The notes: a model not told the origin generated them from the letters alone. DNA of 64,000 bases from an uncultured virus (IMG/VR IMGVR_UViG_3300025099_000013) (IMGVR_UViG_3300025099_000013), one strand, 5' to 3'. Numbered from the stretch's first letter, positions 3,403-49,754 are shown. Made by a program: numbers and translations.

Positions 3403-3442
3403 TTACAAAAGACTTATAACTAATGACTTAGTGGGGAACCTC

Positions 3443-18800: not shown

Positions 18801-21800
18801 TTGGGCTGACATGAGAAATGATGGCTCAGCAGACGCAGATGGAGGTTATAGACAAGATTCTTGGGGATTACTGTACCCAACAGAGGATAATTACGATGTT
18901 ACTATACTATCATCTGATTCACAAGAAGAATTAATATCACTAAAAATAGGAGCAGACATTGATTTATGGGAATTAGGTAAAACAGACCCATTCACAAGTG
19001 CAGTTTGGTCGGATAACTACACAAATACCATTACAGGTGATATAGTATCTCACCTACATAATTGGGAGTCTAAAGCAGGAGCACCTATTGCGGTTGATTC
19101 AAGTAAGTTTTTCAATCTTAACACCTATGCTAACAACGGGAAAATAGGAGATACCTCTGGTGGCTTAAAAGATATTGGGGAAACTATGTTAGAATCAGCA
19201 GGTGAGCCAGCACTTATGGATAGTTATTGGTGGGAAGCCCCACCGCACCCTTACAATGCTAAATATAGAATACAGTACGAACCAAATTGGAGATTCTTCA
19301 TAAATTATCAGACTAAAATGACATTACCTACTATTACAGATAAGCCCGTACTAATATTAGATTCTTCAAACTATTACAAAGGTAATACATTCCCCGACTA
19401 TTCTAATTATGGTGTTATAGAGCATAAAGAAACTGATGGGGATGATGTTTCTTACTATACTTACAAAACAGGAGGGTCGTTTGTTACAGACTATGATGAA
19501 ATATCCGCATCAGACGCTTCAAGACTATATACTCATTTTGGTTCAAGAAAAGTTGATATTGTTAATGATGAAACATTTGGAGTTTCGTTTGAAAATACTA
19601 TTATAGGCAATAACTCAATCCCTGAGTTAAATAAAGATAACGAACATTCAGTATATAGTAATTGGTCATCACTATATGGTTTATTTGCCCTAATGACAGT
19701 AGATGGATTTGTCGAAACAGCAGGTAATAATACTAAATGGGAACATGATAAAATGAGACTTCTTTGGCAAATGAGCAGAACAAAAACTTGGTTGAAAGGA
19801 AATAATATGCCTTTTAATTACGATATTAATAACGTACCTATAACTTATAGAATGGATAGTACACAATTAGGTGGTACTACCCTTGATAATTACGGTGATG
19901 CTTTAGACGCAAGGGGTAAAACATCCTTAAATATTATCCAAGCAGCAAGTAAGCAATCCGGACCCGGCTCGGCAGGTAATACAACAACATTCTTCTATAT
20001 GGTAGGTAAAGATAATAGGTTTGAGTTTAGACCGTCATACAAACAATCAACTGCACTAACAAGAAGTAATTTTATAAAGTCAAATGTAACTGTAGAAGGT
20101 ACAGGACAGATAACTAACGTAAGGGTTGTGTATAATGGTGGTGCATCGTTTGTGGATTATCCTAAACCAATTTCAGGAGCAGACAATAACTTAAGATGGA
20201 AAACTTTACAAGCATGGAGTATTTCATCCCCTAATCAAGCATTAGTCATGGCTAAATCAGAATACAACAAAAATAAAGAGAAAAACTATACTGTTGATGC
20301 GACTATAATAGGAACAACAGGTTCACATAACCCTATGACTTCCGGCGGTAGGTTTGGTTACATATCCACACCACTAATACAATCAATGCCCGATGGATTA
20401 CATACTTACTCGACATTATTCCCACATAGTAATTTAGGTGGTGCGATTATAGGTGGGAGACAAAATGCTATGGATGGTAATCTCGATGGTATAATATATT
20501 CCGGCAGAACACAATCACAAGGAGCAAGTAACCAAACAAATACACATGGAGATGCTTGGGATGAAATATACATAGGAAGTAAAAGGGATTGGGAATATTT
20601 AGAAGAAGGTGTTGGTTATCATGGCTCTGGTTCTTGTAATGTCTATGATATGCACGACACAAATCACACAGGACAATATGCTCCATACGGTGTAAATTGT
20701 ATAGAAAAGGCACTTCAAATAGTCCACATCCCTAAGAATGCTCCTAAAGTGAGTACAAGCACAGGTAATGAATTAAGAGTATTTATAACACACGCTTCAA
20801 ATACTGCTAACGAAACACATTATAGAATATGGTTAATAGATGCACCATTTGATGCACAGAGAACTATCAATACTACCTTAGCACCTAGTAATATTGTATA
20901 TCTTGATGTAAAAGGTAATGGGTTTTACGAAATAGCATTCCCACAATCATACGGGGGCGATTCAACAAGCAGAATCATAGTATCATTTAACGCAGAATAT
21001 TGTGATGACTTACTAAAATATAGAAGTAATAATAGTATATCGAGTAAATCTAACAAAGGTAATAGAATATCAGCAATACCCGATGTGGCAACATCAGTAT
21101 TAGACCTTTCGCATGGCAATCCTGTTAATGAAGGTTCAGCCTTCCCGCTAGGATTATCCCTATATTACAGACCACTAGGTAGTGAAGATTCACAAGGCCG
21201 TCAAGGACCACTATGGCATCTTAGACCAAGAGCTCTATACTATGCTTCTAGGATTGAAATAGTTGATGACTTTGTGTATAGACCTGCAAGAACAATAACA
21301 TATACAGATGCTAACCTAAACATAAGTAGTGATAATCTAATGATAAATAGGGTAGTATGGAATGAAAGACCATATAACAAGTGCGAGGTAAAATTAGTAT
21401 TACAGAAAAATGAATCGCAATCATTACTAAACCCACTATTACCTGCACCTAAACCTATACAAGATATAGGCGGTCAAGATGGGAATGAAGTTGGTGATGA
21501 AGGAGGTCATGGTTCTGATGTTGATGATGACAGAAAAGAAGGTTATGGGGATTATGACGCATCTATAATTACAAACAGGGGTATTGGTAAAAACCATAAT
21601 GTTGTTAGTGGGTACTCGTCAAGACATATAAAACAAAGTAACATAGAAGGTATGCCTGACCAATTCACAGACAGTATAGGTTCTCTAAAGACTAAATCAA
21701 AAATAAGTATAAACAGACTAAGCAGAGGTTCTCTAAATAGTATTAGAGGTAAGACAGATTTAGATTTGAAACTTGGTGGTAAAACAGGCTTATTAGGATT

Positions 21801-22554
21801 TGACAAGAAGGGTGATACTAACTCAAAAAGAGTTAAGGGTATTGAAGGAATAGGTAATTCTAATAAGATAGAAAGCGGTAGTGCTATGATAACTTCCGAA
21901 GGCTTTACACTACCCGGAGTGAGCCACATAGCAGAAACAGGGGTTGTTGATAAATCAGATTATCACGAAGGCTCTGTTACTGTAACAGTACCTATTGATA
22001 GTATAGACGATAGAATAATGGTACAGTTATATGTATTAGCACCCAAAACAGGTGGTGGTGAAACGTACTCTATAAATTGTCTTGTTGAGTGTATAGATAG
22101 TGGTCACGTAAGCGAAAAGATTCTTAATATTAAATCTTCTGATGAAACACAAAGACTTATGGTATTCAACGGTGATAAATTATTAGGGGCTAATATTGCA
22201 GGTAATAAAATTAAAATTACTGTTGGAAGAGTTCCCGGAGGTTCATTACTTACTGTAAAGGATGGGAAAGATAGTTCTCCATTTGGTTCATTATTAATAA
22301 AAGGTGTTAATGTAATATTTAATACTAGAGAAAGAGCATCAATAGGTAATTTATCTTCTAAGAGCAAATTAACAACAGGGGATAATACAAAAGGATTCTT
22401 AAGTGGAACAAAAGATTCTATTAATACAAAAACTTCTAGCGGCACATACGATTCTAGCGGTAATATTATTTACAAATCAGACGGTAGGGCATCAAGTGAT
22501 AAATTAAGAAAAACTTCGGGTGATGCTGATAGTTATTCTGAGGATGGAGCGTGA
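12853..22554 (+). CDS. Giant (3233-aa) tail-tip/baseplate-hub and receptor-binding protein
   Basis: The only gene after the tape measure. Has hub-like segments (WYGYLDSV...IELTAYDAL; QITNVRVVY) and a LamG-like segment (WADIDVVLDF...YKVYLDG). Confidence 0.7.
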   Translation: MTRFLMQYDSQTPLVSDNTNPFPSDYELWLTGYWEDFTSSFCEPEASSNKMEHEKTHFGNPMNSESRLNPYYRFSYIDRVATYWTKNYTLSDSSVFTANRSSGMVTNDMNLLHNEGIHEFLTIDLTRLGKGRAYSSIINNEYLDSHAHSNRYKYAGDGTTESYIKANASHNGTGSYWIGSGQTDASFGRADKKQYVFHKDAGVPSLSITVSNDKVSAIAYKLDSSNETSVSDVDKNHIQFTSSVVTCGVFSTENGLSTLLSASTWDAEDTNANVLGAEIKSPSRTPFLAIRHTKPASLILQGATTANGSSVSDDQGDGVWFYGGHTRGLHPATVGNQSKHLRVGDIVQVGADKHCVIQEIDHKKNAITKLFSITNNALVDIDKYKPTHASYIGSPAAPTAVPLRKWFEPVIGYDGDLNCFGDGDTFHLRLCPLSMDNKGLPDTTRASHYAIRVGYDRSRIDWTSRGNRYNHIGSDYNPSQSISAIEFELQLGTINDAADTLEHGMNVVRSQTFPNAIKDNHKEAFIDYDATSTVSTPNYSNEWEHWADIDVVLDFTNQRYKVYLDGYEGGTFSFETKPSGGAWVASDFYGWHIDHGVTQTTFSSSQTNSFQGGKYWGFESEKTRTYYHLIDRVGLIHEITHPVGDSPNGISSLSDLSIDKLNMSLEIDASSLLRVNIIDDDNERKVQDILTSTPSEWSVALFRNDIDSVSWYGYLDSVRIKQDARSRTKEIELTAYDALSKIESLIPHWEVGQNEDFGPSTDYVYRRQEAEMVTENLFLGARRLMRGASSIGMDHQTRSLHPFDSDDEIGAVQGRYGARYDQRTRLFSSNPIQMYLGEDKFMPSASKDFFNKAQTAKTSSNAIWKQWNTSKIIGFSDGSYHDPSYIIAHCIEHNLEVDDTFKIYNEGSLNKDDSSSTGLNPFTRKTTSEDGMTIIVKKIIDDNHFAFTYSEGNIFGFGSTNTDGWIESGSDTYPVRAEPPSWWSIIRRPRNVGGLGEGDKQYYTSAESNSGAWGCPMFSEIKHDGVNVSIANDYLTAIKLDDADGLRKFDPTLSVSWSGYFSESMSTAGLSTTDNIHACAVDYMTAMSFVNEQTINDNFADIKIGLADAGGYTQTWKPAGLVPLEAKTMKQIHDPHGLITVGPRSCFTESQGASDTPLEYLNYNTSKERGQTLTVIDAYTRYFRTHNTSGGATHGGEVMTFQGTEDSFLTMMIRGNDIDQIEPNNLPTIASSDNKTSSGYGKEFSQAGVFTVTNKTTDSSGDIFSGTNTAVASTQHNHMKHVTTAASVTSGNVVTWTIGAAALKSFPNTGWIRAYNTVSGNRWSMYKITGRGTDTLITKAATSLGIGYMRGQHGTSNILGTPTTAGGQYLEPCVYPVISTAQAIFTPPLARQARRKYRAAHASYMHDIASSMWFRMVFGIIEQRAWGTDGPPHFSTARFPNRKAVITSSGNVSMYGDVGLTPNGGLVGGHDRRDHQAAAPEIAEHQYSDYFVLTADFDPSTDSAMTFKPYCSVPMLDENFEDERNKDITLQDQLNYDYGTDPTMSIPSRAWVTTGNKGTLNNGGLIFELDNIDGTLDVGAARSARMTSFAANRAGSPISNPTWNHYEITKVVQGEILNTGGPNSDNLPYPNVGKYANLTGGLWLKQSNHPAWLQAGNVRNGEIYQKATNERSNRDNIHSGNPRACGYTASGDSYTTGGQTRSGPWFDNEKWAGLQAGDVIFVGNTQGAVQQPPSGTTMQFNNTSKKIVIDNESYVKENTDKFNMRDLYSYRWYKVLVVTGYWILVYPAEVAEQQIRLGFKADDIDRDTDKLKTDNPLAVTYSGTPTSGSIRRGLTNLIYPHAHPVGKMTVEEDIHHKWRHSGSRWYHYNVGVTATGDIPGSVRGSRGVTSTATSGWHNQLQRANVAVAGENQFKNNILNYDGHTNSSLAYNQYPLDTQGGNICKVYAGDITISGVKHLTKPHTAGTVGRFRRIKNDFKHIWLNWADMRNDGSADADGGYRQDSWGLLYPTEDNYDVTILSSDSQEELISLKIGADIDLWELGKTDPFTSAVWSDNYTNTITGDIVSHLHNWESKAGAPIAVDSSKFFNLNTYANNGKIGDTSGGLKDIGETMLESAGEPALMDSYWWEAPPHPYNAKYRIQYEPNWRFFINYQTKMTLPTITDKPVLILDSSNYYKGNTFPDYSNYGVIEHKETDGDDVSYYTYKTGGSFVTDYDEISASDASRLYTHFGSRKVDIVNDETFGVSFENTIIGNNSIPELNKDNEHSVYSNWSSLYGLFALMTVDGFVETAGNNTKWEHDKMRLLWQMSRTKTWLKGNNMPFNYDINNVPITYRMDSTQLGGTTLDNYGDALDARGKTSLNIIQAASKQSGPGSAGNTTTFFYMVGKDNRFEFRPSYKQSTALTRSNFIKSNVTVEGTGQITNVRVVYNGGASFVDYPKPISGADNNLRWKTLQAWSISSPNQALVMAKSEYNKNKEKNYTVDATIIGTTGSHNPMTSGGRFGYISTPLIQSMPDGLHTYSTLFPHSNLGGAIIGGRQNAMDGNLDGIIYSGRTQSQGASNQTNTHGDAWDEIYIGSKRDWEYLEEGVGYHGSGSCNVYDMHDTNHTGQYAPYGVNCIEKALQIVHIPKNAPKVSTSTGNELRVFITHASNTANETHYRIWLIDAPFDAQRTINTTLAPSNIVYLDVKGNGFYEIAFPQSYGGDSTSRIIVSFNAEYCDDLLKYRSNNSISSKSNKGNRISAIPDVATSVLDLSHGNPVNEGSAFPLGLSLYYRPLGSEDSQGRQGPLWHLRPRALYYASRIEIVDDFVYRPARTITYTDANLNISSDNLMINRVVWNERPYNKCEVKLVLQKNESQSLLNPLLPAPKPIQDIGGQDGNEVGDEGGHGSDVDDDRKEGYGDYDASIITNRGIGKNHNVVSGYSSRHIKQSNIEGMPDQFTDSIGSLKTKSKISINRLSRGSLNSIRGKTDLDLKLGGKTGLLGFDKKGDTNSKRVKGIEGIGNSNKIESGSAMITSEGFTLPGVSHIAETGVVDKSDYHEGSVTVTVPIDSIDDRIMVQLYVLAPKTGGGETYSINCLVECIDSGHVSEKILNIKSSDETQRLMVFNGDKLLGANIAGNKIKITVGRVPGGSLLTVKDGKDSSPFGSLLIKGVNVIFNTRERASIGNLSSKSKLTTGDNTKGFLSGTKDSINTKTSSGTYDSSGNIIYKSDGRASSDKLRKTSGDADSYSEDGA

Positions 22555-24452: not shown

Positions 24453-25333
24453 ACTATCACCGTTGGGTCTTGACCAGCACCATGTAACTCTTCATCACAT
24501 GATAAATAGAAATCACAATAGTTTGCACAGAAGTATTCGCTCCACTTAGGAGTCCAATCTTTCATCTTAAGAGTATTAACAATCCTAGCATAGTCTTTTT
24601 CAAAAGCAGTGTGGCTACGCTTACCTAGTTTCTCTATTACAGTTATCCCCTTAACATCTCCAACATAGACTTCTTTGTTTTTACTTTTTAGTAAAGTCTC
24701 TGCTGTTTTAGGGTTGGTGCAATCAGAGGATATTAGCATCATGTGAGTCACAGGACCATATTTTTCTTCATAGCCTAGTAGTCTAATCATTCTAGTATAG
24801 AAACATAATTCTCTTCGCACCCTGCTTAACTTAGCGGTACTAAGGTCACCTGTTTTCAATTCCATAATACAAAGACCACCATCGGGGTGTAGCATAAGAC
24901 CATCCCACATACCCGAAAGAACAACATCATATTCAGGGTCATACACCTCCTTCTTTACTTCTGCCTCAATCGGCAAGAAGAACTCGTTGCCCCATACTTC
25001 CAAGCGTTGTGTCTCCATAACTGCGATTTCGTCAAAGGTGTCATCATACTCTGTCGCTACGGGTAACTGGGCTCTTATAGTCTCTAGCCCCGTATGTTGT
25101 TCTTTAGTAGTATATAGATTCTCGACACCTTCATGCACTATTGTTCCTTTAATCATAAACTCGGTGGCGGGTATTCTTACATCGGGTAATGCTACCTTAT
25201 TCCACCAATACTTACGAGGACACTGCCTTGCCGACATAAAGGATGATTTGCTTATACGGAGTTTAACATCACCTATTACTTCATAGGGATTATATGATGA
25301 CTCCATATATTCACTCTTCTTCATTATTAGCAA
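24449..25333 (-). CDS. Cas4-like PD-(D/E)XK exonuclease (CRISPR-independent)
   Basis: CPRKYW, G..VH, G..D, ELKTG and C-terminal C...CDF...C, giving four Cys for an Fe-S cluster. Confidence 0.8.
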   Translation of the reverse strand: MLIMKKSEYMESSYNPYEVIGDVKLRISKSSFMSARQCPRKYWWNKVALPDVRIPATEFMIKGTIVHEGVENLYTTKEQHTGLETIRAQLPVATEYDDTFDEIAVMETQRLEVWGNEFFLPIEAEVKKEVYDPEYDVVLSGMWDGLMLHPDGGLCIMELKTGDLSTAKLSRVRRELCFYTRMIRLLGYEEKYGPVTHMMLISSDCTNPKTAETLLKSKNKEVYVGDVKGITVIEKLGKRSHTAFEKDYARIVNTLKMKDWTPKWSEYFCANYCDFYLSCDEELHGAGQDPTVIV

Positions 25334-25682
25334 AGGGATTTTCTATGTGGTTAAAACCATCCATACACTCTTTAACTTCTTCACCATTGTTGTTAATCCT
25401 GTTAGGGCAGACCGGCATAGCCTGTATTTCTTCAAACGCATGAGGATAAATGATATTCATACCACACCCACTACATTCTTCCTTAACTGCTAGACCTGCG
25501 TCTAATAGATGAAGATGTAAAAGTGTTGTCATATTCTCAGCGTGTTTGCTAAAGTCAATAAAAACACTCACTAATTGATTATGTTTTTCTTCAATCAAAT
25601 CCACTTTTTCTTTCATTTCTCTTAAGTCTTGTTGCATGACCTGTTTTACTGTCATTTTCTTCGGCGTTCTTTGTCCTTTCAT
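25311..25682 (-). CDS. Coiled-coil/Zn-finger hypothetical protein
   Basis: The ATG overlaps the PolB stop (TAATG); CSGC...CPN...C. Confidence 0.6.
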   Translation of the reverse strand: MKGQRTPKKMTVKQVMQQDLREMKEKVDLIEEKHNQLVSVFIDFSKHAENMTTLLHLHLLDAGLAVKEECSGCGMNIIYPHAFEEIQAMPVCPNRINNNGEEVKECMDGFNHIENPFANNEEE

Positions 25683-27883
25683 TATAACCACTCTACTGTT
25701 TTCCTTCCCTTCTTCGCATCGTATAGTGGAGACATATCCCAAGATGCTATTTCATAGAAAGGTTTAACTTTCTCTAAAATATATCTATCAGACATTATCT
25801 CGTACCCTATCCCGATGGTTGCTGGTAGTTCTTCCACCCTGTCAAAAGATATAAACCTTCCGTTATTATCTATCAGATTCCAAAAATATGAACCTTTTCT
25901 ATATTGTTTTCCTAAGTGTGTATTCGCCCATAATGCTCCTGCTGCCGAGCCACCTATTGTCTTATAGTCTTTTAGGTCTTTCTTTAATTTACCTTTCTGT
26001 TTTAGGTCATCAAGGGATATGCTACCATCTATCATATCATGTATAATATTACATACTTTCTCTGTAACACTTTCTTCACTTTTACCATCAAGCATAGAGT
26101 TTATAGTTGTATTCATAGCATCCTTCATTATCTGAGGCATCCTTGCTTGCTTAGATTCAATCCCCTTGATATAATAGTCGGGTTCGTGGTATTTACCATC
26201 AGTCCATACTACCTTACCTGCGTATCTATTCTTAGCCTTAAGAAGCATACGCTCACAATGCTTTTCATATTCAGTTTCTATCGGAGCCATTTCTTTGTTA
26301 ATCCACTCAACCATCTCCACACCCGCTTCGGGGGATTCAACACATACGAAAACAGAATCAGTATGACCATAAATTACATCACAACCCCATTCAATACATT
26401 TATCCCTAAGCGTAAAAAGAGTGTTTCTTGATTCCCTAGTAATGGCCGCCGCTACCGCAGGGTGATACATACCGAATCGGCTATCGCCACACACTCCATA
26501 CAGCGAAGCCACTAGGGACTTTGTTGCGAATTGAGCCGAATCCCATTTAGTCTTTTCGTCTTTGGTTGTCGAAGCCTTCATATTAGCCTTGTACTCATTT
26601 CTTAAATCTGTAAGTAGGTTCATAGCACGACCTAATGCACCTGTTGGTGCGTCTGTATCGAACACAGCATTCTTCTCATCAAGTAAAGTTTCCCAAGATA
26701 TATTATACTTAACGACATTACTATGGTACATGGCTCTAATATCCATGATGGCAACATTTTCATATAGCCCTGCTACCGGTTCTTGTATATCTGCACCTTG
26801 ATAATCTTCATAACCAAACTGAGCCCTTGAAGGCATCTTCCAGTCAATTTCTTTATCACGCATAAATAATACTGTTGCTAATCTAGTGACCCAAGGAGTT
26901 GTTGTAAAATCACACTGAACAATATGCTGTAAGTTGATATAGTGGTCGATACAATTCAACATCTTATCTAATTTAGGAAGTAATGCTACGTCTTGTATGT
27001 TATAGTCAATGTATAGACCGATGTCAGTATAGTATGTATCATGCCCGTCTGCTAGGTCCATCTTTTCTTCATCTTCAAGAACAAACTGCGATACATCTTT
27101 TAGGCTTTGACCAGGTAGTTGCCCGTTCTTTATTCGCCATAACTTACAGAATACAGTCATTAGGTCAATAGTAATTCTGCCTTTGATACATTGTGACCAA
27201 TCATCAAACTGATAACGAACAGAACCATGTGGACTCATTCTTTTACCTGCATTCCAACCATGCCTCTTACAAGCATCAAACAGGACTCGCATATCAGCAC
27301 CCATAAAGAACCAACCTGTCAATACATCTGGGTCTTTCTTCATCATCACATGGAAGAAATCATCGAGTAATTCCTTTTCGGTCTTGAATGCTTTAAGTGG
27401 GGGATTGAATGTTTTATCTCCTAACTTACTTACTAATGGTGGGTGAGTTTGACCGGGCGGTGATACAAACCACGTTAGATATTTCCCCATGTAATTATCA
27501 TAGACAGTCGCAACCGTTACTTCTTCCCTTTCATTCCACTCAAGGTCGACATACCATACACGATGCTTATAGAATGGGTACTCTTTACCATTATCCATAA
27601 GTACTCTATTAGTGAAGGGGATATTACATTCCCAAGTCTGTGAAAACTTATCCTTTAGTTGTGATACTTCATAAGGGTCGCTAAGTGTTATCTTAGTAAG
27701 TGATTCACCATAAAGACCACTAAAACCCTCTTCCTTTCTTATTGCTGAAACTAAATCTGCTTCTTCATCTCTAATAAAACCATAAGGGTAAATGTGGCTT
27801 ATTATATCTTGCTTTCGGTCAAGCGTTACTGGGTCACGATACCTAACTGCAACCCTTTTCCCGCCTAACTTATCCACTATCAT
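25682..27883 (-). CDS. polB: Family B DNA polymerase
   Basis: Exo I (VDLE), Exo III (YNIQD), motif A DIRAMYHS, motif B KSLVASLYG, motif C YGHTDS, KNRYAG. Confidence 0.95.
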   Translation of the reverse strand: MIVDKLGGKRVAVRYRDPVTLDRKQDIISHIYPYGFIRDEEADLVSAIRKEEGFSGLYGESLTKITLSDPYEVSQLKDKFSQTWECNIPFTNRVLMDNGKEYPFYKHRVWYVDLEWNEREEVTVATVYDNYMGKYLTWFVSPPGQTHPPLVSKLGDKTFNPPLKAFKTEKELLDDFFHVMMKKDPDVLTGWFFMGADMRVLFDACKRHGWNAGKRMSPHGSVRYQFDDWSQCIKGRITIDLMTVFCKLWRIKNGQLPGQSLKDVSQFVLEDEEKMDLADGHDTYYTDIGLYIDYNIQDVALLPKLDKMLNCIDHYINLQHIVQCDFTTTPWVTRLATVLFMRDKEIDWKMPSRAQFGYEDYQGADIQEPVAGLYENVAIMDIRAMYHSNVVKYNISWETLLDEKNAVFDTDAPTGALGRAMNLLTDLRNEYKANMKASTTKDEKTKWDSAQFATKSLVASLYGVCGDSRFGMYHPAVAAAITRESRNTLFTLRDKCIEWGCDVIYGHTDSVFVCVESPEAGVEMVEWINKEMAPIETEYEKHCERMLLKAKNRYAGKVVWTDGKYHEPDYYIKGIESKQARMPQIMKDAMNTTINSMLDGKSEESVTEKVCNIIHDMIDGSISLDDLKQKGKLKKDLKDYKTIGGSAAGALWANTHLGKQYRKGSYFWNLIDNNGRFISFDRVEELPATIGIGYEIMSDRYILEKVKPFYEIASWDMSPLYDAKKGRKTVEWL

Positions 27884-27905: not shown

Positions 27906-28397
27906 TTATAATACTTGCCATCCATCACGGCTTATAGTTAGTGGGTTATGTGGTTTGAAACAATTAAACCATTCCGCTATATCATCCATAACTTCTGCAC
28001 TAAATGGTCTAACAAACTCCCAATCATTATGTGCTATGACCCAAGGATTATCCTCTAAGTCTAAACAGAGTTCTTGGTCCTCCGCAAACCATATAACCTT
28101 CTTGCCGGTCATGTGTGCATACATAATCTCCATACAAGTACCTATGCTTAATTCTTTAGGAACATAATTGACTATAATAATATCACTTCGGTCTATCATT
28201 AATTTATCTCTAGGGACTATTAATTCTTTGAATGTCTCATCATAATGAACATCACCTGCTTTAGCACTAACCATAGGATTGAATACTGTAAATCCTTTTT
28301 CGGTCAATATATTATATGCTACTTCACGCCACCCTATTGAACGCCAACGCTCATCACCTTCGAGAATTGGTCCGCACAAATAGAATGATACACTCAT
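27906..28397 (-). CDS. Nucleoside 2-deoxyribosyltransferase / nucleotide N-hydrolase-like protein
   Basis: FYLCGPI, GFTVFNP, RD..IDRSD, SIGT.MEI.YA...GK.V; ATG 28397 is coupled to the upstream stop. Confidence 0.8.
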   Translation of the reverse strand: MSVSFYLCGPILEGDERWRSIGWREVAYNILTEKGFTVFNPMVSAKAGDVHYDETFKELIVPRDKLMIDRSDIIIVNYVPKELSIGTCMEIMYAHMTGKKVIWFAEDQELCLDLEDNPWVIAHNDWEFVRPFSAEVMDDIAEWFNCFKPHNPLTISRDGWQVL

Positions 28398-28693
28398 TCT
28401 TGTCTCCTTCCTCTTGGTCTGCTTTCGATACCATGCTTTACAATCCACTGGTTTATGGTCATAGGACTTACACCACATCTATTCCCAATCTGTTGAAGGG
28501 TTTGTCCTTTGTTGATATATTCTTCTCTTAACCATGATTCTTGTCTATATGGTTTAGAGGTATCTGCTGTACCTGTGCTTAGGAGATACCATACTCCATC
28601 TTTAACGAATCTTACATTCGCTTTACAGGGTATTATTTCTTGTATTCCATCTTGTTCTTCATCTATTACTATTGCATATTCTGTTTCTGTCAT
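28394..28693 (-). CDS. HTH DNA-binding protein
   Basis: YRQESWLREEY...TLQQIG..CGVS..TINQW..KHGIE.R, an HTH pattern common in archaeal tailed viruses. Confidence 0.75.
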   Translation of the reverse strand: MTETEYAIVIDEEQDGIQEIIPCKANVRFVKDGVWYLLSTGTADTSKPYRQESWLREEYINKGQTLQQIGNRCGVSPMTINQWIVKHGIESRPRGRRQE

Positions 28694-28761
28694 TTATTTT
28701 GGCTTCCCGCCTATGGGCTTTCTACTATTACGGAAGAGGCATGGGGTTATAAATCTTTGGA

Positions 28762-29697
28762 TTACAACCACTCTGTATAGTTTCTTTTTTCAAAGTAAGA
28801 GGCCTTCAATTCTTTCGTTATCTTTATACTAGGTACGGTTTTGTATATCTTATTTACGATAGCCGGTCTTAGTTTCTGCTTTGCTATCTTACTAGAAGCA
28901 CCTCTAACTGCTGCACCTCTATTTACATAAGCACTATCCAACCCTAATTTCTCTTCCCATGCCTTTGAAGCATAGTGGAGGAGAACAGGTGTCATATTCT
29001 TTATTAACTTATTATCGTAGTCTTTACAGGCCGTATCATATATTAGACCGTTGTCAGTCCTATGTGAAAGATGATACCCTATACATCTATCCCCTTCCAT
29101 AATGGTCAGAAGAAGTGCATCTTCTAATTGTGAATAAGCATTGAACGAGTCAATAAAGAAGTTAGGCTTCCATGCTTTTTTATCCCTTTGTCCTAACCAT
29201 CTGCCGGTCAAAGCATTACATGATTCAAGCGTTTTGTATGGTACGTTGCCCCAATGAACCTGTATATCTATTGTATCTGAGTCGTTAAGCGACTCAGCCT
29301 TGTTACATGGCCTTCTTAATTGGTTCTTGTTCACCCCGTATCTATCGCTGAATGCACTAAGTTTGTATATGTATTCTTCATTATCAAGCACACATTCTTG
29401 CATACCGGACTCATTTACTAGGCTAGGAATACCTGCATCGTTTAATTTATTCACCATATCATCACTTGATGGTAGGATAGCATACAATACTTGAGTACCC
29501 ATAATTTGTCTGTCTTTCAGAACGACTAATTCATCATCAATATATCCTAACTTGAATACATGAGGTTGGTGCATCAATCTAAGGGGAGATTCATAGTACC
29601 TAATTAACCTACCACAAGACATAGAAGAAAGTGCTTCACGAAACTCGGTATAGTTTTCTAATGTTAGTGGCTTAAACTCGCTTAAGTCTAAAGCCAT
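28762..29697 (-). CDS. Stand-alone DUF2156 / LPG-synthase-C-like (GNAT-fold, aminoacyl-tRNA transferase-like) protein
   Basis: FKPLTLE start; EYIY...G..K...R...NK; C......W; YVNR.......K.AK..L.P. These parallel the DYIY/KRN/YINREED..GLR.AK.SY.P pattern. No TM domain. Confidence 0.65.
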   Translation of the reverse strand: MALDLSEFKPLTLENYTEFREALSSMSCGRLIRYYESPLRLMHQPHVFKLGYIDDELVVLKDRQIMGTQVLYAILPSSDDMVNKLNDAGIPSLVNESGMQECVLDNEEYIYKLSAFSDRYGVNKNQLRRPCNKAESLNDSDTIDIQVHWGNVPYKTLESCNALTGRWLGQRDKKAWKPNFFIDSFNAYSQLEDALLLTIMEGDRCIGYHLSHRTDNGLIYDTACKDYDNKLIKNMTPVLLHYASKAWEEKLGLDSAYVNRGAAVRGASSKIAKQKLRPAIVNKIYKTVPSIKITKELKASYFEKRNYTEWL

Positions 29698-30866
29698 TCA
29701 ACATCCTCAGTCTTATCTTCAACATCTAAGTAATGAAACTCATCCTGTATAGTCTTTGGGTCACCCTTGAAGAAGATTAAAACATTCTGATGAGTTTTAC
29801 CTAACTTTCTATTGTTAGCAAACTGCTTATGGACTCTTATAGGAAGGCTACCTGCAACTGTAATTAAAATACATTCATTGTATAAGGTAGCACCTGCTGA
29901 TTGAAATGCGTCAATAGTGTCGCTAACGAAGTTACGATAGAATCCTTTTTCATTTCTAAAGTCTCCAACAACGAACACAGCAAATCTATTAGGCTTGAGC
30001 ATATCAACAGAACGCTGAATAATATTTCTATACGAATCTAAAAACTCGTGGTGTTCCATAGTGGATAAATCCCTATCATCTTCTGAATAGACTTCAAGGT
30101 CACCATAGGGCGGGCATGAAAATACCATATCCCATTGACCACCTATCTTATCCTGTATGTCTAGTGCGTCTCCAACAACCCAATTAGGCATAGGTAAATC
30201 TGTATTACCTAGAATCTCTAATCCTTGAATCCTATTTGCTTGTACTTGGTCGGAACGTAATTCCATACCCGCATACTGATGATTACCATGTGCTGCAACA
30301 ATTCCTCTTACAGAACCACCACAGAAAGGGTCAAGAATGCTACCACCTTCGGGGCAGAACCAATTATACATTAACTCTGTTAGCACTGGGTCGAATATAG
30401 AAGTACCTGTTGCTCTATTTTGGAAAGCATCACCTTCTTTTAGGGCGGCACTTGTTGTACCATCCTCATTCTTATGAAGCCATGCACTATTTTTACCTGT
30501 GCCTCCTCCCGGAATTGCTCTAGTATCTTTCTTAGTTTCATTCCACGTTGCTTTGTCTCCAATAGCGAATGTCTTAGCATTACCTTTTGAATCTCCACCG
30601 ACCGATACTTCTTCATCTGTTAGAAGAAAGCCTTCTTTTTGTAATTGGTCGAAATCATATTCCTTTTTACCAAACATATACTTCATGTTCGACTTTGACA
30701 TAGCGATAAGTGCTTCACCCCTACCTAATTCTGAACGAATACCTTTACGAGTCCACCAACGCTTTCTGTCTTGCCAATAACCTTGACGAGCATCTAGTAT
30801 GCTGAAAGGCGGTGCGCCATATCTCTTTTTTAGTGGTGTTCTTATTATATGTCTTTCTAAACTCAT
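29688..30866 (-). CDS. Amino (N6-A/N4-C) DNA methyltransferase-like protein
   Basis: SAM-binding LDPFCGGSVRG and catalytic SCPPY; TSIFDPVL motif. Confidence 0.85.
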   Translation of the reverse strand: MSLERHIIRTPLKKRYGAPPFSILDARQGYWQDRKRWWTRKGIRSELGRGEALIAMSKSNMKYMFGKKEYDFDQLQKEGFLLTDEEVSVGGDSKGNAKTFAIGDKATWNETKKDTRAIPGGGTGKNSAWLHKNEDGTTSAALKEGDAFQNRATGTSIFDPVLTELMYNWFCPEGGSILDPFCGGSVRGIVAAHGNHQYAGMELRSDQVQANRIQGLEILGNTDLPMPNWVVGDALDIQDKIGGQWDMVFSCPPYGDLEVYSEDDRDLSTMEHHEFLDSYRNIIQRSVDMLKPNRFAVFVVGDFRNEKGFYRNFVSDTIDAFQSAGATLYNECILITVAGSLPIRVHKQFANNRKLGKTHQNVLIFFKGDPKTIQDEFHYLDVEDKTEDVEWL

Positions 30867-31060
30867 TCTTCTTCATCTCCATCATTATATTTTTTCCAAG
30901 CCTCGAATAGAGGCAATATATCTCCTGATTCAAATATAGTACCAGAGGCCATGTGGATTAAGAAAGGTTCATTATCGTAGGGTTCTGTTATTGATGATAT
31001 ATCTCTTATATCCATCCAAGTTATACCTGTTGAAGTCGATACGGATATTATTGTTTTCAT
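30863..31060 (-). CDS. Hypothetical protein
   Basis: GGAGGT RBS before ATG 31060; coupled to the methyltransferase. Confidence 0.55.
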   Translation of the reverse strand: MKTIISVSTSTGITWMDIRDISSITEPYDNEPFLIHMASGTIFESGDILPLFEAWKKYNDGDEEE

Positions 31061-31061
31061 C

Positions 31062-31562
31062 CTAAAAACCTCCTTCGTCACAGCAGTTGCCCGCACAATC
31101 GTCGCACTGCGGTTCATAACAGTGTTCACAATCCCAAGTATTATCTGCTCTAGTTTCTGAACCACAATTACAAATCATCCATGAAGAATCTAGTTCTCCG
31201 TTAAGAATTACTTTACCTTCGTGGTGGTCTACTGATATCGTAGGTTTTGACTTATGTAATATACCCATACCGGTAGGGTTTTCATGGCAACACTCGATAG
31301 GAACGATAGCCAATAAACCTGCATCAACTCCCATTTCACCACCACTAAAATACCAACAGCCATCTCCTCCCGGAGAAGGATAGACTTCTATTTTGTATGT
31401 CTCCTCTGAAAGAGTTCCTTCATTCATAGTCCAATCTAATTCTGCTTCGTAATCTTCGTTTTGCTCAGCCCAAAGTAATTCACAAAACTCATTCCATCTA
31501 TTATCTTCTATAACATAACAGGGGTCGCCTGTATAGTATTTGACTTCGTGTAATTCCATCAT
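31062..31562 (-). CDS. Conserved-type viral hypothetical protein
   Basis: GDPCY, GGDG and GVDAGLL motifs plus a C-terminal Cys cluster. Confidence 0.6.
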   Translation of the reverse strand: MMELHEVKYYTGDPCYVIEDNRWNEFCELLWAEQNEDYEAELDWTMNEGTLSEETYKIEVYPSPGGDGCWYFSGGEMGVDAGLLAIVPIECCHENPTGMGILHKSKPTISVDHHEGKVILNGELDSSWMICNCGSETRADNTWDCEHCYEPQCDDCAGNCCDEGGF

Positions 31563-31568: not shown

Positions 31569-32390
31569 TCACCTCTTAATAACTGCTGCTTGGAATACCC
31601 AATCACCATTGTCGAATACAAGTAATAGTCTGATACCCTGTCCTTCTGGTCGGAAGTCTATGAAGTATAGATTGACCATACCATCATAGTTAGATAGCAT
31701 TTGCTCTAATCCACCTTCAAAGGTTGTTGTAAAATCCTCTTGGAAAGGTGTATCATCATTAAGTATTGTCTCAGTCTGCCCTTTCAAATCGCTACCGGTT
31801 AGAACGAATAATGTGTCTTTGCCGTCGTGCTGAAAGGTATATTGGTTAAGTTTTTGACCGTTCATGTTATCACATCTTAAAGCCTCGTGAAGAAGGTTAG
31901 ATGAAGTCTCAACCATGTGCATAGCATTTCTTTTTGAGCCATCACGCATAATATAGCATCCCGCAGCAGGGTCAATCTGATTAGACATACTTACAGACTT
32001 CTCTTCCCACTGTGCAATTGTTTCTTGACTGTGTGGGAACGCTAGACTACCCGGCTCTGCAACTAATGTCGTTTGCTTACCGCTGCTCTTAATCTTTAAT
32101 GAACCACCTAATTGTGTTAGGGTTACATCTCCGCTATGTGCTGAAAGAACTCCTAGTGTTCTATCAATGTCGGGGATGACTATTGCATCTTCATTTTCTG
32201 ACCATGAACAGGGGATTGAAAACTTACCAAGACTCGTCTTGCCATCTCTAACTAGACTTGTGGTGTTCGCACTATCCCCGTTGGGTCTAATGACACAGCC
32301 TATAACCTGCTGTTGAGGTTTTGCATTCACAAATTGTTTTCTTGCTGTTACTTCTAATAATCTCTTGAGGTTTCCCGTCTTGACTAACAT
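31569..32390 (-). CDS. Divergent DNA sliding clamp (PCNA-like)
   Basis: ~273 aa with a two-lobed alpha/beta pattern (LKRLL...; I.D....GVL...VTL....LKIK); lies in a replisome cluster with PolB and RFC. Confidence 0.6.
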   Translation of the reverse strand: MLVKTGNLKRLLEVTARKQFVNAKPQQQVIGCVIRPNGDSANTTSLVRDGKTSLGKFSIPCSWSENEDAIVIPDIDRTLGVLSAHSGDVTLTQLGGSLKIKSSGKQTTLVAEPGSLAFPHSQETIAQWEEKSVSMSNQIDPAAGCYIMRDGSKRNAMHMVETSSNLLHEALRCDNMNGQKLNQYTFQHDGKDTLFVLTGSDLKGQTETILNDDTPFQEDFTTTFEGGLEQMLSNYDGMVNLYFIDFRPEGQGIRLLLVFDNGDWVFQAAVIKR

Positions 32391-32422
32391 ATTTGAATCC
32401 ACCTAGTTACCACTTATAAAGA

Positions 32423-34849: not shown

Positions 34850-35752
34850 TTATTGGCTTATAAACCTGCAAAACTCCCAAATTACATATTCTTCGGGAAC
34901 ACCATTTATTAGGTCTCTTCGTGCTTGAATGGCTGCCTCAACAACTAACATCTTACTTTTGTAATCGCTCATATTAGCGTCTATTGCTTTTAGGAATACT
35001 TGATGAATAGCCTCACGTGCAGGGGCTTCACTTAATATCTTGACCGCTTCGGGAACATTACCCATCTTAAGACACATGGTCAAAACTGAACCCGCATTAA
35101 TCTCAGGCGTACTGATAGATGCTATGAATCCTTTTCGGTCTATGGGGGATAAGTAAGAGGCCGCTTGAAGCGCACCGATAGCATTTCTCATATCACCACC
35201 ATGCTTATTGATAATTACTGTTAAATCTTCCTCAGTCATTTCTACCGCTTCCATAACACAGATATGTTTCAAACGCTCCATAACTAAATCATCGGGTATT
35301 GGATTGAATGTTCTGACTTGACACCTTGACTTGAGCCAAGGAGATACTTTGTTCAAATCATTACAAGTAAGTATGAAAAATCCTTGAGCGTTTTCTATAA
35401 CTCCTTTTAGTGCGTCTTGTGCTGTCGGTGTTATTCTATCTGCCTCGTCAAGAAGGAATATAGTTTCATACTGCCCGATACGAGACATAGGTCCTATATC
35501 ATCTTCAACGAAATCTATTCCCCTTTGTTTCTTAGTCGAAGCATTGAACTCATGAAGTTGGAAAAGTAATTCATCAGCCATAACCCTCGCCATAGTTGTT
35601 TTACCACTACCCGGCTCAGGACTATGGAATAAGAAGTGTTGCATCGGTGCATCACCATTGACAATCGCTCGCATTTCAGATACTACCGAATCTTGTGATA
35701 ATACTTCATCCAACTTCTGTGGTCTATATTTTTCAGCCCAAATTACTTTCAT
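34850..35752 (-). CDS. rfcS: Clamp loader, RFC small-subunit-like
   Basis: WAEKYRP, PGSGKTT, EFNAS, LLDEAD, SRC, GDMR motifs. Confidence 0.92.
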   Translation of the reverse strand: MKVIWAEKYRPQKLDEVLSQDSVVSEMRAIVNGDAPMQHFLFHSPEPGSGKTTMARVMADELLFQLHEFNASTKKQRGIDFVEDDIGPMSRIGQYETIFLLDEADRITPTAQDALKGVIENAQGFFILTCNDLNKVSPWLKSRCQVRTFNPIPDDLVMERLKHICVMEAVEMTEEDLTVIINKHGGDMRNAIGALQAASYLSPIDRKGFIASISTPEINAGSVLTMCLKMGNVPEAVKILSEAPAREAIHQVFLKAIDANMSDYKSKMLVVEAAIQARRDLINGVPEEYVIWEFCRFISQ

Positions 35753-36883: not shown

Positions 36884-37066
36884 TTACTGTTCCAACCACA
36901 TAGCGTAGTCCATTAAATCTTCTGAGGACTCTTCATTGACGTATAGTTCGCCAGAGATTTTTGTAGGTAAAATATTAGTAAAGAGGTTTATAAATCTAAG
37001 TAATAGTATTATCAAAAAAGACCAAATAGGTGTAAGAAGTGCTAACACAATTATTTCTAAAGCCAT
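36884..37066 (-). CDS. Small membrane protein
   Basis: Long N-terminal hydrophobic segment. Confidence 0.55.
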   Translation of the reverse strand: MALEIIVLALLTPIWSFLIILLLRFINLFTNILPTKISGELYVNEESSEDLMDYAMWLEQ

Positions 37067-37722
37067 TCTATCAAGGACTCCTTAGTTTTCTTAATAGTAG
37101 ATGGTGCTTGGTCAATCGTTCTTAGTTTGTTTCTTACTTCGGGGGCATTAGCAACGATTATATCTGCATAAGCATCGGTAGACCGGAATCCGAAGGGGAT
37201 TATAGAATCATCCTTTATCTTCTTCTTAGGCCATGAGACATGACTGTGAATCGGTTCTGTTCCAAAAACTAATGCTGCTTTAGCATATGCCTCATCCATC
37301 TGATACCTTGCCTTACTAACTATACGTTGTTCTTCAATTCCCTGCGGTCTATTGACCCTATGGAATGCTTCTGCTAGTGCTAGAGGAACAGGGTTCATAG
37401 ATTTCCATGCCCTGTTTCTATCAGACCACTTCATCATAGCATTAATTGGTGAATTATAGTTATTTTTACCCTTCTTAGCGGATTTATGAATAATAATATT
37501 ATCCCCTTCACGAACACCTTTAATTCCCTTTCTAGGTATCACTACAAGCCTATATGTTACTAGATTAGCCCATTCTTTCGCCATAGATAGGGGGAATGAT
37601 TCACAATGTAAAATATAAGTAGTGTCCGGTGCAGTAGGGGGTGATGTGAGTTCACCATACATCAAAATATAGTCTCCATTCCTAAAAGAAGCATCGTCAC
37701 CTGCATAAATTATTACACCCAT
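37057..37722 (-). CDS. Hypothetical protein with PIP-like C-terminus (possible second clamp-loader subunit)
   Basis: Ends KKTKESLIEWL; lies near rfcS. Confidence 0.5.
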   Translation of the reverse strand: MGVIIYAGDDASFRNGDYILMYGELTSPPTAPDTTYILHCESFPLSMAKEWANLVTYRLVVIPRKGIKGVREGDNIIIHKSAKKGKNNYNSPINAMMKWSDRNRAWKSMNPVPLALAEAFHRVNRPQGIEEQRIVSKARYQMDEAYAKAALVFGTEPIHSHVSWPKKKIKDDSIIPFGFRSTDAYADIIVANAPEVRNKLRTIDQAPSTIKKTKESLIEWL

Positions 37723-37997
37723 TATTTCACTCTCCCTACCGGTTGTTGCGGTATTACCCTATGGCCTCCGCACTCGCCGCATGATTCTTTTCCTTCTTTA
37801 TGAGTTATAATACCACCACCATTACATACAGGGCATATTATTAAAAGTCTTGTAATACATATTCTGCATCTTAATTCTCCTGATTCGAGATGCTGAATTG
37901 TGTGCCTAGAATGCCTCCACTTACAGCATTCAATACAATAACCTTTCCAAGAAAACTCATTCTTCTTCCTGTCCTTCGTCATATACGCCATCTCCAT
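37722..37997 (-). CDS. Multi-Zn-finger protein
   Basis: CIEC, CRIC, CPVCNGGG, CGECGG. Confidence 0.6.
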   Translation of the reverse strand: MEMAYMTKDRKKNEFSWKGYCIECCKWRHSRHTIQHLESGELRCRICITRLLIICPVCNGGGIITHKEGKESCGECGGHRVIPQQPVGRVK

Positions 37998-43838: not shown

Positions 43839-44071
43839 TCTTCTTCCTCCTCACAATGTTCTCTTAAACTATCCCAATCAATAGTCGTGAAATCTATTAG
43901 GTCTGTGTAAAAGTGGGCTGTTGAGCCATATTGCTTCTCCATCATATCAAGGAACTCATCTTCTATCGTTTCCTCTAGATAATTCACATCACTCACAGTT
44001 CTAGGCTCATACCACAAATTGACGAGCCATGTTGCCCTGTTCCTCCAACCATTTACTTCTCTATTACACAT
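43835..44071 (-). CDS. Hypothetical protein
   Basis: NGW.N.ATWLVNLW motif; GGAG RBS; first gene after the boxed promoter at 44181-44205. Confidence 0.6.
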   Translation of the reverse strand: MCNREVNGWRNRATWLVNLWYEPRTVSDVNYLEETIEDEFLDMMEKQYGSTAHFYTDLIDFTTIDWDSLREHCEEEEE

Positions 44072-49750: not shown

Positions 49751-49754
49751 GCAA

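What the first reader, a model, noticed from the sequence alone, without database searches (positions are those of the whole stretch)
27906..30866. Methyltransferase + stand-alone DUF2156 transferase + deoxyribosyltransferase block beside PolB: candidate new DNA modification pathway
Seen: MTase-like and DUF2156-like genes overlap, followed by an HTH gene, an NDT-like gene and then polB. The DUF2156-like protein has no membrane domain and its YINREED motif is altered to YVNRGAA. Established: this GNAT-fold family (MprF synthase domain) transfers amino acids from aminoacyl-tRNA; phage Mu Mom is a GNAT that modifies adenine N6; NDT-fold enzymes (DNPH1, MilB) hydrolyse modified nucleotides. Inference: amino-acid-type base modification with a salvage or sanitising enzyme. 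Lipid or protein aminoacylation remains an alternative.
Basis: partly seen in the sequence, partly recalled or inferred. Interest (0 to 1): 0.8.

Follow-up and report, generated by a model that had tools for sequence, protein, structure and literature searches.

The report
Clamp-tethered DNA methylase plus tRNA-type aminoacyl transferase
A marine archaeal-type tailed virus carries, beside its DNA polymerase, a methylase-like gene overlapping a gene shaped like enzymes that take amino acids from charged tRNA, and the pair probably puts an undescribed mark on freshly copied viral DNA.

Summary

Three further results tie it to DNA:
- **Partner enzyme.** Its partner is a PF01555 amino-methylase relative with an unusual CPPY catalytic motif. 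In other phages the same DUF2156-like domain is inserted inside that same CPPY enzyme.
- **Shared tail.** Methylase, DUF2156-like protein, PolB and a 221-aa protein all end in EWL (chance about 3e-9). A sliding clamp and a clamp loader are encoded nearby.
- **Variable slot.** In 43 related viral loci the region between clamp and PolB holds varied DNA-modifying genes, and the enzymes there (not the stand-alone PLP enzyme) carry this tail.

Best reading, about 0.5: replication-coupled DNA hypermodification by aminoacyl transfer from charged tRNA. This is Mom-like chemistry done by a different GNAT family. No chemistry has been shown.

The HTH gene belongs with PolB. The deoxyribosyltransferase-like gene co-occurs with the DUF2156-like gene in one clade only and lacks the tail, so its link is weak.

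This scan had already noted the same pair on another genome. The paper searches made here found no publication on it.

The parts
29688..30866 (-). CPPY-type amino-methyltransferase-like enzyme (392 aa). It has an N-terminal APPFSILDAR segment, motif I DPFCGGS at residue 179, motif IV CPPY at residue 251, and a C-terminal DVEWL tail.
   Evidence: PF01555 at 40.9 bits, phrog_498 at 1.3e-80, phrog_12517 at 1.4e-100. The alignment to beta-class amino-methylases 2ZIE and 9C3U shows motif I lying before motif IV, a permuted order. All 119 long homologues carry CPPY..L..Y.
28762..29697 (-). Stand-alone soluble DUF2156-like double-GNAT transferase (311 aa). It has a basic linker helix at residues 124-139, an invariant NRGAAVRG..S..AK.KLRP block at 259-278, and a C-terminal YTEWL tail.
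29688..29697 (-). 10-nt overlap of the methylase end (E-W-L-stop) with the DUF2156-like start (M-A-L).
   Evidence: Read directly. The overlap is conserved in 12 of 12 loci that hold both gene ends. M1, A2 and L3 are invariant in alignment A1.
28394..28693 (-). 99-aa helix-turn-helix protein. It belongs with PolB rather than with the modification genes.
   Evidence: Weak HTH hits in Pfam; phrog_8446 and phrog_7545 match the DNA-binding N-terminus of HNH endonucleases. A homologue lies directly before PolB in 32 of 32 loci that hold PolB, with or without modification genes.
27906..28397 (-). Nucleoside 2-deoxyribosyltransferase-fold protein (about 163 aa from M28; the ORF extends to 28478). It has no W-L tail.
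   Evidence: PF05014 at 38.8 bits and PF15891 at 30.6 bits. A profile of 6 relatives hits L. leichmannii NDT 1F8X at E 1.4e-4, with GTCMEvmYA aligned to GLGMELGYA. The start is inferred.
25682..27883 (-). Family B DNA polymerase (733 aa) ending in TVEWL.
   Evidence: PF00136 at 2.7e-34, phrog_262 at 1e-81. Its nearest relatives among cultured viruses are haloarchaeal tailed viruses, at about 23% identity. The complete PolBs listed all end in W followed by L, I or V.
31569..32402 (-). Virus-encoded sliding clamp (277 aa), the inferred docking partner of the EWL tails.
   Evidence: AF2 pLDDT 81.1, pTM 0.82. Foldseek matches DnaN, archaeal PCNA and 9-1-1 clamps at E about 1e-9, with TM 0.62-0.69 normalised to the target for the PCNA/9-1-1 chains. 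The Atlas lead was gp45.
34850..35752 (-). RFC-like clamp loader ATPase (300 aa).
   Evidence: PF00004, RuvB_N, the lid domain PF21960, and phrog_168 'clamp loader' at 8.4e-44.
37057..37722 (-). 221-aa protein of unknown family ending in LIEWL, the fourth EWL-tailed protein in the window.
   Evidence: No hit in Pfam, PHROGs, NCBIfam or PADLOC. Homologues with the same tail occur in related loci.

Best explanation
The CPPY methylase-like enzyme and the DUF2156-like double-GNAT work as one DNA-modifying unit that rides on the virus's own sliding clamp behind the polymerase.

Proposed mechanism, step by step:
1. The methylase-like enzyme supplies DNA binding, and probably base flipping and positioning of an exocyclic amino group. 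This is inferred from its family.
2. The double-GNAT takes an aminoacyl group from a host aminoacyl-tRNA. This is inferred from its family, in which every member I know to be characterised does so; the sterol paper read here covers MprF and ErdS, the rest is recalled.
3. The aminoacyl group is placed either directly on the base, as Mom does on N6-adenine, or on a group that the CPPY enzyme first installs from SAM.
4. The result would be viral DNA carrying an amino-acid-type hypermodification made right after replication, most likely to blunt host nucleases.

What is shown:
- the fold;
- the gene coupling;
- the fusions;
- the shared tails;
- the clamp fold.

What is inferred:
- the tail binds the clamp;
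- DNA is the acceptor;
- aminoacyl-tRNA is the donor;
- the product.

The NDT-fold enzyme is not tethered. If it takes part at all, it acts on free nucleotides.

For: **2. tRNA-binding feature.** The helix that links the two GNAT halves (residues 124-139) carries K124, R128, R129 and K133. K124 and R128 are invariant in 15 relatives, and R128 is at least 90% conserved in 41. A basic helix at this place is the aa-tRNA-binding feature of DUF2156 (PMC7334510, passages read).

**3. Fusions.** A profile search of 1.84 billion representative proteins found only 110 relatives. Five of them (P0029, P0037, P0039, P0043, P0061) hold the domain inside a protein with the window methylase's own motifs, VPPFSxLDxR upstream and CPPY.DLEVY downstream. 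P0067 joins the domain to an SPPY-type PF01555 part. Some also carry a PLP enzyme or ParB_N. The same holds for L015 and P0149.

**4. Coupling.** The 10-nt overlap is conserved in 12 of 12 loci.

**5. Tails in the window.** 4 of 163 window ORFs end in EWL, against 0.016 expected (P about 3e-9). They are PolB, the methylase, the DUF2156-like protein and orf221. All 15 proteins of A1, the window's own included, end in W followed by L, I or V.

**6. Tails in related loci.** In the 43 loci, 83 of 504 complete plus-strand ORFs end in W[LIVMF]. They are mostly PolBs, methylases of three motif types, the DUF2156-like proteins, an ATPase-GNAT and orf221 homologues; some further W-tailed ORFs were not identified.

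**7. Replisome context.** A clamp and a clamp loader are encoded 0.7 and 4 kb away.

**8. Tails in distant relatives.** 32 of 89 distant stand-alone relatives end in tails like other clamp-binding motifs (QLxL, LDLF, GFGF). Controls gave 4.7-6.1 expected and at most 15 in 500 trials. The patterns were chosen after looking.

**9. Precedent.** Mom transfers glycine from Gly-tRNA to N6-adenine of dsDNA (PMC13219725).
Against:
- The window protein itself is below the PF09924 cut-off (18.4 against 27.5 bits).
- All 14 close loci belong to one viral lineage, so their synteny counts as one observation.
- Only 2 of 120 listed long CPPY-methylase homologues carry the DUF2156-like domain, whereas 63 of 120 carry a PLP enzyme. 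The methylase clearly works without it; five related loci have the CPPY methylase and no DUF2156-like gene.
- Gene context for most of the 110 distant relatives could not be fetched.
- All DUF2156 acceptors that I know to be characterised are lipids or small molecules, not DNA (recalled, and PMC7334510 passages).
- The window holds no tRNA gene.
Confidence: 0.5

Rival explanations
1. The pair makes ordinary methylation. The DUF2156-like protein would be a non-transferring accessory, such as a specificity, loading or regulatory subunit of the methylase, or it would use acyl-CoA to make a simple N-acyl mark.
For: - The methylase keeps motif I and the PPY core.
- Related viruses carry the CPPY methylase alone (L048) or with a PLP enzyme instead.
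- Cultured phages annotate this family simply as DNA methylase.
Against: - Family-wide invariant polar residues point to an active site: Y111, W167, G261 and K273 invariant; R33, E108, R128 and N259 near-invariant across 41 sequences at about 20% identity.
- The basic linker helix is kept.
Confidence: 0.2
2. The double-GNAT aminoacylates something other than DNA at the replication fork or elsewhere. Candidates are a protein (clamp, polymerase, host factor), a lipid or a small molecule. Its link with the methylase would then reflect co-regulation only.
For: - Known DUF2156, FemX and Sbb17 acceptors are lipids, peptidoglycan precursors and natural products (titles; PMC7334510 passages).
- No DNA-binding element is evident in the 311-aa protein itself.
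Against: - Insertion of the domain between motif I and motif IV of a DNA methylase-like enzyme, with ParB_N in P0061 and P0149, is hard to explain without a shared substrate.
- No membrane segment is present, since the whole length is the soluble fold.
- The inferred host is an archaeon (inferred from the archaeal-type replication genes); archaea have no murein (recalled), so a FemX-type role is unlikely.
- Every identified tail-bearing neighbour in the clamp-PolB slot of related viruses is a DNA-modifying enzyme family.
Confidence: 0.15
3. Modification happens at the nucleotide level. The double-GNAT and the NDT-fold enzyme would remodel free (deoxy)nucleotides, making or cleaning up a modified precursor that PolB then incorporates.
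For: - The NDT-like gene is present in 9 of 9 loci that have the DUF2156-like gene and enough flank, and in 0 of 25 PolB-bearing loci without it (phmmer at E 1e-4 could miss divergent copies).
- The residue aligned to the NDT catalytic Glu is kept.
Against: - The presence/absence pattern is a single clade, so it may reflect one or two gene gains.
- The NDT-like protein lacks the tail while the double-GNAT has it.
- The fusions place the double-GNAT inside a DNA-acting enzyme, not with nucleotide-metabolism enzymes.
- No NDT gene lies beside CPPY methylases in five cultured phages examined.
Confidence: 0.1

Closest known systems
Phage Mu Mom (Gly-tRNA-dependent glycylation of N6-adenine, rearranging to N6-carbamoylmethyl-adenine)
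   Same: A viral GNAT-superfamily enzyme that takes an amino acid from charged tRNA and puts it on a base in dsDNA after replication, as protection from nucleases (PMC13219725; abstract and passages read).
   Different: Mom is a single GNAT domain that works alone. Here there is a double-GNAT of the DUF2156/MprF/FemX family, always coupled or fused to a CPPY methylase-like enzyme, with a polymerase-like C-terminal tail. Donor, target base and product are unknown here.
DUF2156 / LPG_synthase_C (PF09924): MprF synthase domain, fungal ErdS, stand-alone BT protein 2HQY
   Same: Double-GNAT fold, a basic helix between the halves, and sequence-profile kinship through relatives.
   Different: There is no membrane domain and no aaRS fusion. 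The window protein scores below the Pfam cut-off. It belongs to a small separate clade, 110 representatives among 1.84 billion proteins, whose members are fused to DNA methylase-like enzymes. Known acceptors are lipids and sterols.
CmoA/CmoX/CmoY 5-carboxymethylcytosine-glycine pathway of Synechococcus phage S-B43
   Same: A methyltransferase-fold enzyme installs a handle on a DNA base, and a second phage enzyme adds an amino acid (PMC12783734; abstract and outline read only).
   Different: CmoX is a C5-cytosine enzyme that uses carboxy-SAM, and CmoY is an ATP-dependent amide ligase. Here the partners are an amino-methylase relative (PF01555, CPPY) and a tRNA-type transferase.
C-terminal clamp-binding tails of replicative polymerases (T4/RB69 gp43-gp45; archaeal PolB PIP box)
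   Same: A short conserved C-terminal peptide is shared by the polymerase and other DNA-acting proteins of a virus that encodes its own clamp and clamp loader. The comparison itself is recalled, not tested.
   Different: The motif here is x-E-W-L at the very C-terminus and does not fit the canonical Qxx[LIM]xx[FY][FY] pattern. Binding was not tested.
Nucleoside 2-deoxyribosyltransferase / DNPH1 superfamily (PF05014)
   Same: Pfam score above cut-off. The segment around the Glu nucleophile aligns to L. leichmannii NDT. That this Glu is the nucleophile is recalled.
   Different: Identity is low. The position aligned to NDT Asp92 is not acidic (the role of Asp92 is recalled). The substrate is unknown, and the link to the modification pair rests on one clade only.

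Membership tests
DUF2156 / LPG_synthase_C (PF09924) | Double (tandem) GNAT fold | tested here: met
DUF2156 / LPG_synthase_C (PF09924) | Score above Pfam's gathering cut-off (27.5 bits) | tested here: inconclusive
   The window protein scores 18.4 bits, below the cut-off. 9 of 15 close relatives match at E up to 0.01, best 1.7e-6. More distant clade members exceed the cut-off: P0031 42.1, P0023 36.4, P0024 35.5, P0029 34.1.
DUF2156 / LPG_synthase_C (PF09924) | Positively charged helix between GNAT I and GNAT II, the aa-tRNA binding element | tested here: met
   Helix 124-139 in the model has the sequence NKNQLRRPCNKAESLN, with K124, R128, R129 and K133. K124 and R128 are invariant in A1, and R128 is at least 90% conserved in A3. 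The feature is defined in PMC7334510. tRNA binding itself was not tested.
DUF2156 / LPG_synthase_C (PF09924) | Aminoacyl-tRNA-dependent transfer activity | not testable with these tools
   This needs biochemistry.
Mom-like GNAT DNA aminoacyl transferases | Single GNAT domain with Mom's insertion and essential R111/S124 | tested here: inconclusive
   No Mom entry appeared among the rows shown from the Foldseek or VIA searches. The architecture here is a double GNAT. I file it as working like Mom, not as a member of that family.
N6/N4 amino-methyltransferases (PF01555) | Pfam score above cut-off and SAM-binding motif I (FxGxG) | tested here: met
   40.9 bits against 26.7. DPFCGGS at residue 179 aligns to DPFAGTG and DPFMGSG of solved methylases.
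N6/N4 amino-methyltransferases (PF01555) | Catalytic motif IV (D/N/S)PP(Y/F/W) | tested here: not met
   The motif is CPPY at residue 251, aligned to SPPY of 2ZIE and DPPY of 9C3U. Cys is fixed in 119 of 119 long homologues and in the related loci listed. I therefore call it methylase-like; methyl transfer is not assumed.
Nucleoside 2-deoxyribosyltransferase (PF05014) | Pfam score above cut-off and conserved Glu nucleophile | tested here: met
   38.8 bits against 28.8. E in GTCME aligns to E in GLGMELGYA of 1F8X and is invariant in 6 relatives. That this Glu is the nucleophile is recalled.
Sliding clamp (PCNA/DnaN/gp45 fold) with tail-docking clients | Clamp fold of the 277-aa protein | tested here: met
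   AF2 pLDDT 81.1. Foldseek matches DnaN, PCNA and 9-1-1 at E about 1e-9.
Sliding clamp (PCNA/DnaN/gp45 fold) with tail-docking clients | Physical binding of the EWL tail to the clamp | not testable with these tools

The most novel reading that the evidence does not exclude
The CPPY enzymes may not be plain methylases. They could be the DNA-docking core of a modular hypermodification platform that rides on the sliding clamp.

- The core would install an amino-acid-like handle from SAM (aminocarboxypropyl, or aminopropyl where a SAM decarboxylase sits next door), or relay an acyl group through its invariant Cys.
- Plug-in modules would then elaborate the handle: a PLP enzyme of the ACC-deaminase type, a class-I methylase, an Asp/Asn hydroxylase, or the DUF2156-like tRNA-dependent transferase.
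- In this virus the outcome would be an aminoacyl or peptidyl mark written on archaeal-virus DNA at the replication fork from host aminoacyl-tRNA.
- That would be a second, independent invention of tRNA-dependent DNA modification.
Probability: 0.2. Interest if true: 0.9.

Novelty: new variant of a known kind. Interest (0 to 1): 0.75.

Why it matters
Only one enzyme, Mom of phage Mu, is known to use charged tRNA to modify DNA, and that was settled only recently.

A second GNAT family with the same logic would show that tRNA-dependent DNA aminoacylation is a recurring viral strategy. This candidate is wired to a methylase-like partner and apparently to the sliding clamp, and it occurs in abundant marine archaeal-type viruses as well as in bacterial phages.

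It would also give a first function to a stand-alone DUF2156 clade and to the widespread CPPY 'ParB-methylase' family of phages. It would name a new class of clamp clients.

The prediction is directly testable with two genes and LC-MS.

Tried and rejected
- Complex prediction (clamp plus tail) was unavailable.
- The window's own assembly is not held.
- PNAS 2015 on the aaPGS structures is not held.

**Searches with no useful hit**
- PDB by sequence: nothing for the DUF2156-like protein alone; its profile gave only a chance-level hit; the clamp profile gave chance-level hits only.
- NCBIfam, PHROGs and PADLOC gave nothing for the DUF2156-like protein.
- tblastn found no DUF2156-like gene in 50,697 cultured-phage records.
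- No tRNA gene in the window.

**Neighbourhood survey of distant relatives, mostly failed**
- Alignments too diverse for pattern search.
- No relatives found in JGI metagenomes, in GTDB genomes or in IMG/VR.
- only re-found L016's contig.
- A PF09924 search of the nearest virus record gave no loci of canonical MprF, so the 'YINREED' comparison and residue-level mapping of catalytic residues were not done.
- G002 holds no PolA, so tail sharing with a polymerase could not be checked there.

**Literature**
- Searches found nothing on DUF2156 or CPPY enzymes in DNA modification.
- PMC11780129 was read in passages and is irrelevant.

**Sequencing runs**
- All 24 runs are kept as contigs, so no modification signal can be read.
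- Short contigs from 4 RNA libraries (2 studies) cover parts of the methylase, one part of the DUF2156-like gene and the HTH gene. DNA carry-over cannot be excluded, so this is not counted as expression.

**Other**
- orf221 got no lead from the Atlas; best score 0.81.
Full report
**What is there**

The region lies in the minus-strand replication module of a tailed virus. Structural genes are present: a tail tube (PF18906), a tape-measure-like protein and a terminase. The replication genes are of archaeal type:
- a family B polymerase whose nearest cultured relatives are haloarchaeal tailed viruses, at about 23% identity;
- an RFC-like clamp loader, an ERCC4 nuclease and a PD-(D/E)XK nuclease.

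It resembles the marine 'magrovirus' kind of virus (PMC5434244, one passage read; PMC10768690, whole text read), but I did not place it in that group.

The gene order is: methylase 30866-29688, DUF2156-like 29697-28762, HTH 28693-28394, NDT-like 28478/28397-27906, PolB 27883-25682. The first two genes overlap by 10 nt. The start codon of the second gene sits inside the E-W codons of the first.

**The 311-aa protein**

- Pfam gives only a sub-threshold PF09924 hit (18.4 bits).
- Fourteen homologues at 40-92% identity gave a confident AF2 model, pLDDT 85.4 and pTM 0.84.
- Foldseek ranks MprF, the stand-alone DUF2156 protein 2HQY, L-PGS, A-PGS, FemX and the tRNA-dependent peptide synthase Sbb17 first. 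CoA-using tandem GNATs rank lower.
- The helix joining the two halves is basic and conserved. This is the aa-tRNA-binding feature of the family (PMC7334510, passages read).

The fold question is settled, and the protein is soluble. What the family conserves at that place is N-x-G-[AS] followed by G-L-x3-K-x2-L-x-P.

**A small, separate clade fused to methylase-like enzymes**

A profile search of 1.84 billion representative proteins found only 110 relatives. Most are stand-alone proteins of 300-350 aa.

Five long relatives (P0029, P0037, P0039, P0043, P0061) carry the domain inside a protein with the window methylase's own signature. VPPFSxLDxR lies before the domain and CPPY.DLEVY after it, so the double-GNAT is inserted into that enzyme. 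Some also carry a PLP enzyme (PF00291), a class-I methylase or ParB_N. P0067 joins the domain to an SPPY-type PF01555 part instead. L015 and P0149 show the insertion too.

In an unrelated phage contig (L016), the DUF2156-like gene overlaps a class-I methylase gene. A PLP enzyme gene follows, and an SPPF PF01555 methylase lies two genes upstream.

**The partner**

The methylase is a permuted relative of beta-class amino-methylases, with motif I before motif IV. Its motif IV is CPPY, not D/N/SPPY.
- Cys is fixed in 119 of 119 long homologues.
- Of the 120 long homologues listed, 63 carry a PLP enzyme annotated by one source as ACC-deaminase-like, 10 carry DNA polymerase A, and 4 carry an Asp/Asn hydroxylase.
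- The family occurs in cultured phages: Pam4, R6L, Mae-JY30, phiFL3A, B054, HCTV-2 and P2559S. In P2559S the next gene is annotated as a SAM decarboxylase.
- I found no functional study of this family.

**The tails**

Four of 163 window ORFs end in EWL, with 0.016 expected (P about 3e-9). They are PolB, the methylase, the DUF2156-like protein and a 221-aa unknown. I found this before consulting earlier notes.

The 277-aa protein at 31569-32402 folds as a sliding clamp.

**The variable slot in 43 related loci**

Using the clamp as a probe, 43 IMG/VR loci were fetched, with clamp identity from 100% down to 30%. The complete PolBs listed all end in W followed by L, I or V. The slot between clamp and PolB varies:
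- CPPY methylase + DUF2156-like + NDT-like (the window clade);
- stand-alone PLP enzyme + short CPPY methylase (4 loci);
- CPPY methylase alone (1 locus);
- DPPY or SPPY methylases, in one case with a C5-methylase-like gene;
- a P-loop ATPase fused to a GNAT (1 locus).

The modification enzymes in the slot carry the tail; the stand-alone PLP enzyme, the HTH protein and the NDT-like protein do not. The HTH gene directly precedes PolB in 32 of 32 loci, so it belongs with PolB.

Among 89 distant stand-alone relatives, 32 end in tails resembling other clamp-binding motifs, against about 5-6 expected. The patterns were chosen after looking, so this is soft evidence.

**The NDT-fold gene**

- It passes Pfam and keeps the Glu aligned with the NDT nucleophile.
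- It is present in 9 of 9 loci that have the DUF2156-like gene and enough flank.
- It is present in 0 of 25 PolB-bearing loci without that gene.
- This pattern comes from one clade.
- The protein has no tail.
- It is not found beside CPPY methylases in five cultured phages.
- Its link to the pair is therefore weak.

**Reading**

The best-supported explanation is a clamp-tethered, two-enzyme DNA hypermodification unit. The methylase-like core holds the DNA and the base. The double-GNAT delivers an aminoacyl group from charged tRNA. This is analogous to Mom (PMC13219725) but uses another GNAT family.

Fold, coupling, fusions, tails and clamp fold are shown. Clamp binding, DNA as acceptor, tRNA as donor and the product are inferred. 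I put this reading at about 0.5.

Rivals:
- plain methylation with an accessory or CoA-using GNAT, 0.2;
- a non-DNA acceptor, 0.15;
- nucleotide-level chemistry together with the NDT-like enzyme, 0.1.

**Novelty**

Two earlier notes of this scan (e1-6067111, e1-6067124) reached a similar reading on another genome. Their shared-tail and fold claims I reproduced independently. Their GAG/CTC target claim I did not test. In print I found nothing on this pairing. Supplements of the papers were not opened.

Noticed in passing
window, whole; e.g. 25311-25742, 30863-31165, 37957-38490, 43835-44092, 44621-44890, 44887-46092, 47932-48561, 53747-54088: Nine of 163 ORFs end in EEE. This is the commonest C-terminal tripeptide in the window and may be a second shared tail, perhaps docking to another replisome or SSB-type partner.
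   Followed up: no
window 37057-37722 (-): A 221-aa protein with no family hit in any library also ends in LIEWL. Its homologues in related viruses keep the tail. It is an unidentified likely clamp client.
   Followed up: partly
L046:6796-7947: In a sister virus the clamp-PolB slot holds a 383-aa P-loop ATPase fused to a GNAT acetyltransferase (PF00583/PF13508) ending in GVEWL. The layout recalls the RNA cytidine acetyltransferase TmcA (recalled). It could be a DNA N-acetylating enzyme.
   Followed up: partly
L042:6831-7721 with L042:7792-8736 (also L043, L049, L051): Sister viruses pair a stand-alone PLP enzyme (PF00291) with a short CPPY methylase. This is the split form of the PLP-methylase fusions that make up 63 of 120 listed long homologues.
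   Followed up: partly
L020 (Croceibacter phage P2559S) 2356-3714 and 3677-3997: A CPPY methylase gene overlaps a gene annotated as S-adenosylmethionine decarboxylase. This hints that some CPPY enzymes may use decarboxylated SAM (motif).
   Followed up: no
L016 / G002 44982-50180: In an unrelated phage, the PF01555 methylase, the DUF2156-like protein and the class-I methylase end in SEGFGL, ESGLLY and KEGLIL respectively. This may be a different shared tail on the same set of enzymes.
   Followed up: partly
window 29688-29697: The invariant N-terminus M-A-L of the DUF2156-like protein is encoded by the same bases as the E-W-L-stop of the methylase. The two features constrain each other.
   Followed up: yes
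window 44887-46092 (-): An ArdC-like protein (ArdcN plus a zincin peptidase; phrog 'anti-restriction protein') lies in the same early module. It is a further hint of an anti-restriction strategy.
   Followed up: no
window 12853-22554 (+) and 3-2525 (+): There is a 3233-aa ORF with no Pfam hit after the tape-measure-like gene. A collagen-repeat protein runs off the window start, where GC rises to 0.49.
   Followed up: no
window 3431-4012 (+): A 2OG-Fe(II) oxygenase gene sits among the structural genes.
   Followed up: no
window 56001-58000: A local GC peak of 0.51, against 0.36-0.43 elsewhere, lies over an unassigned 292-aa ORF at 56631-57509.
   Followed up: no
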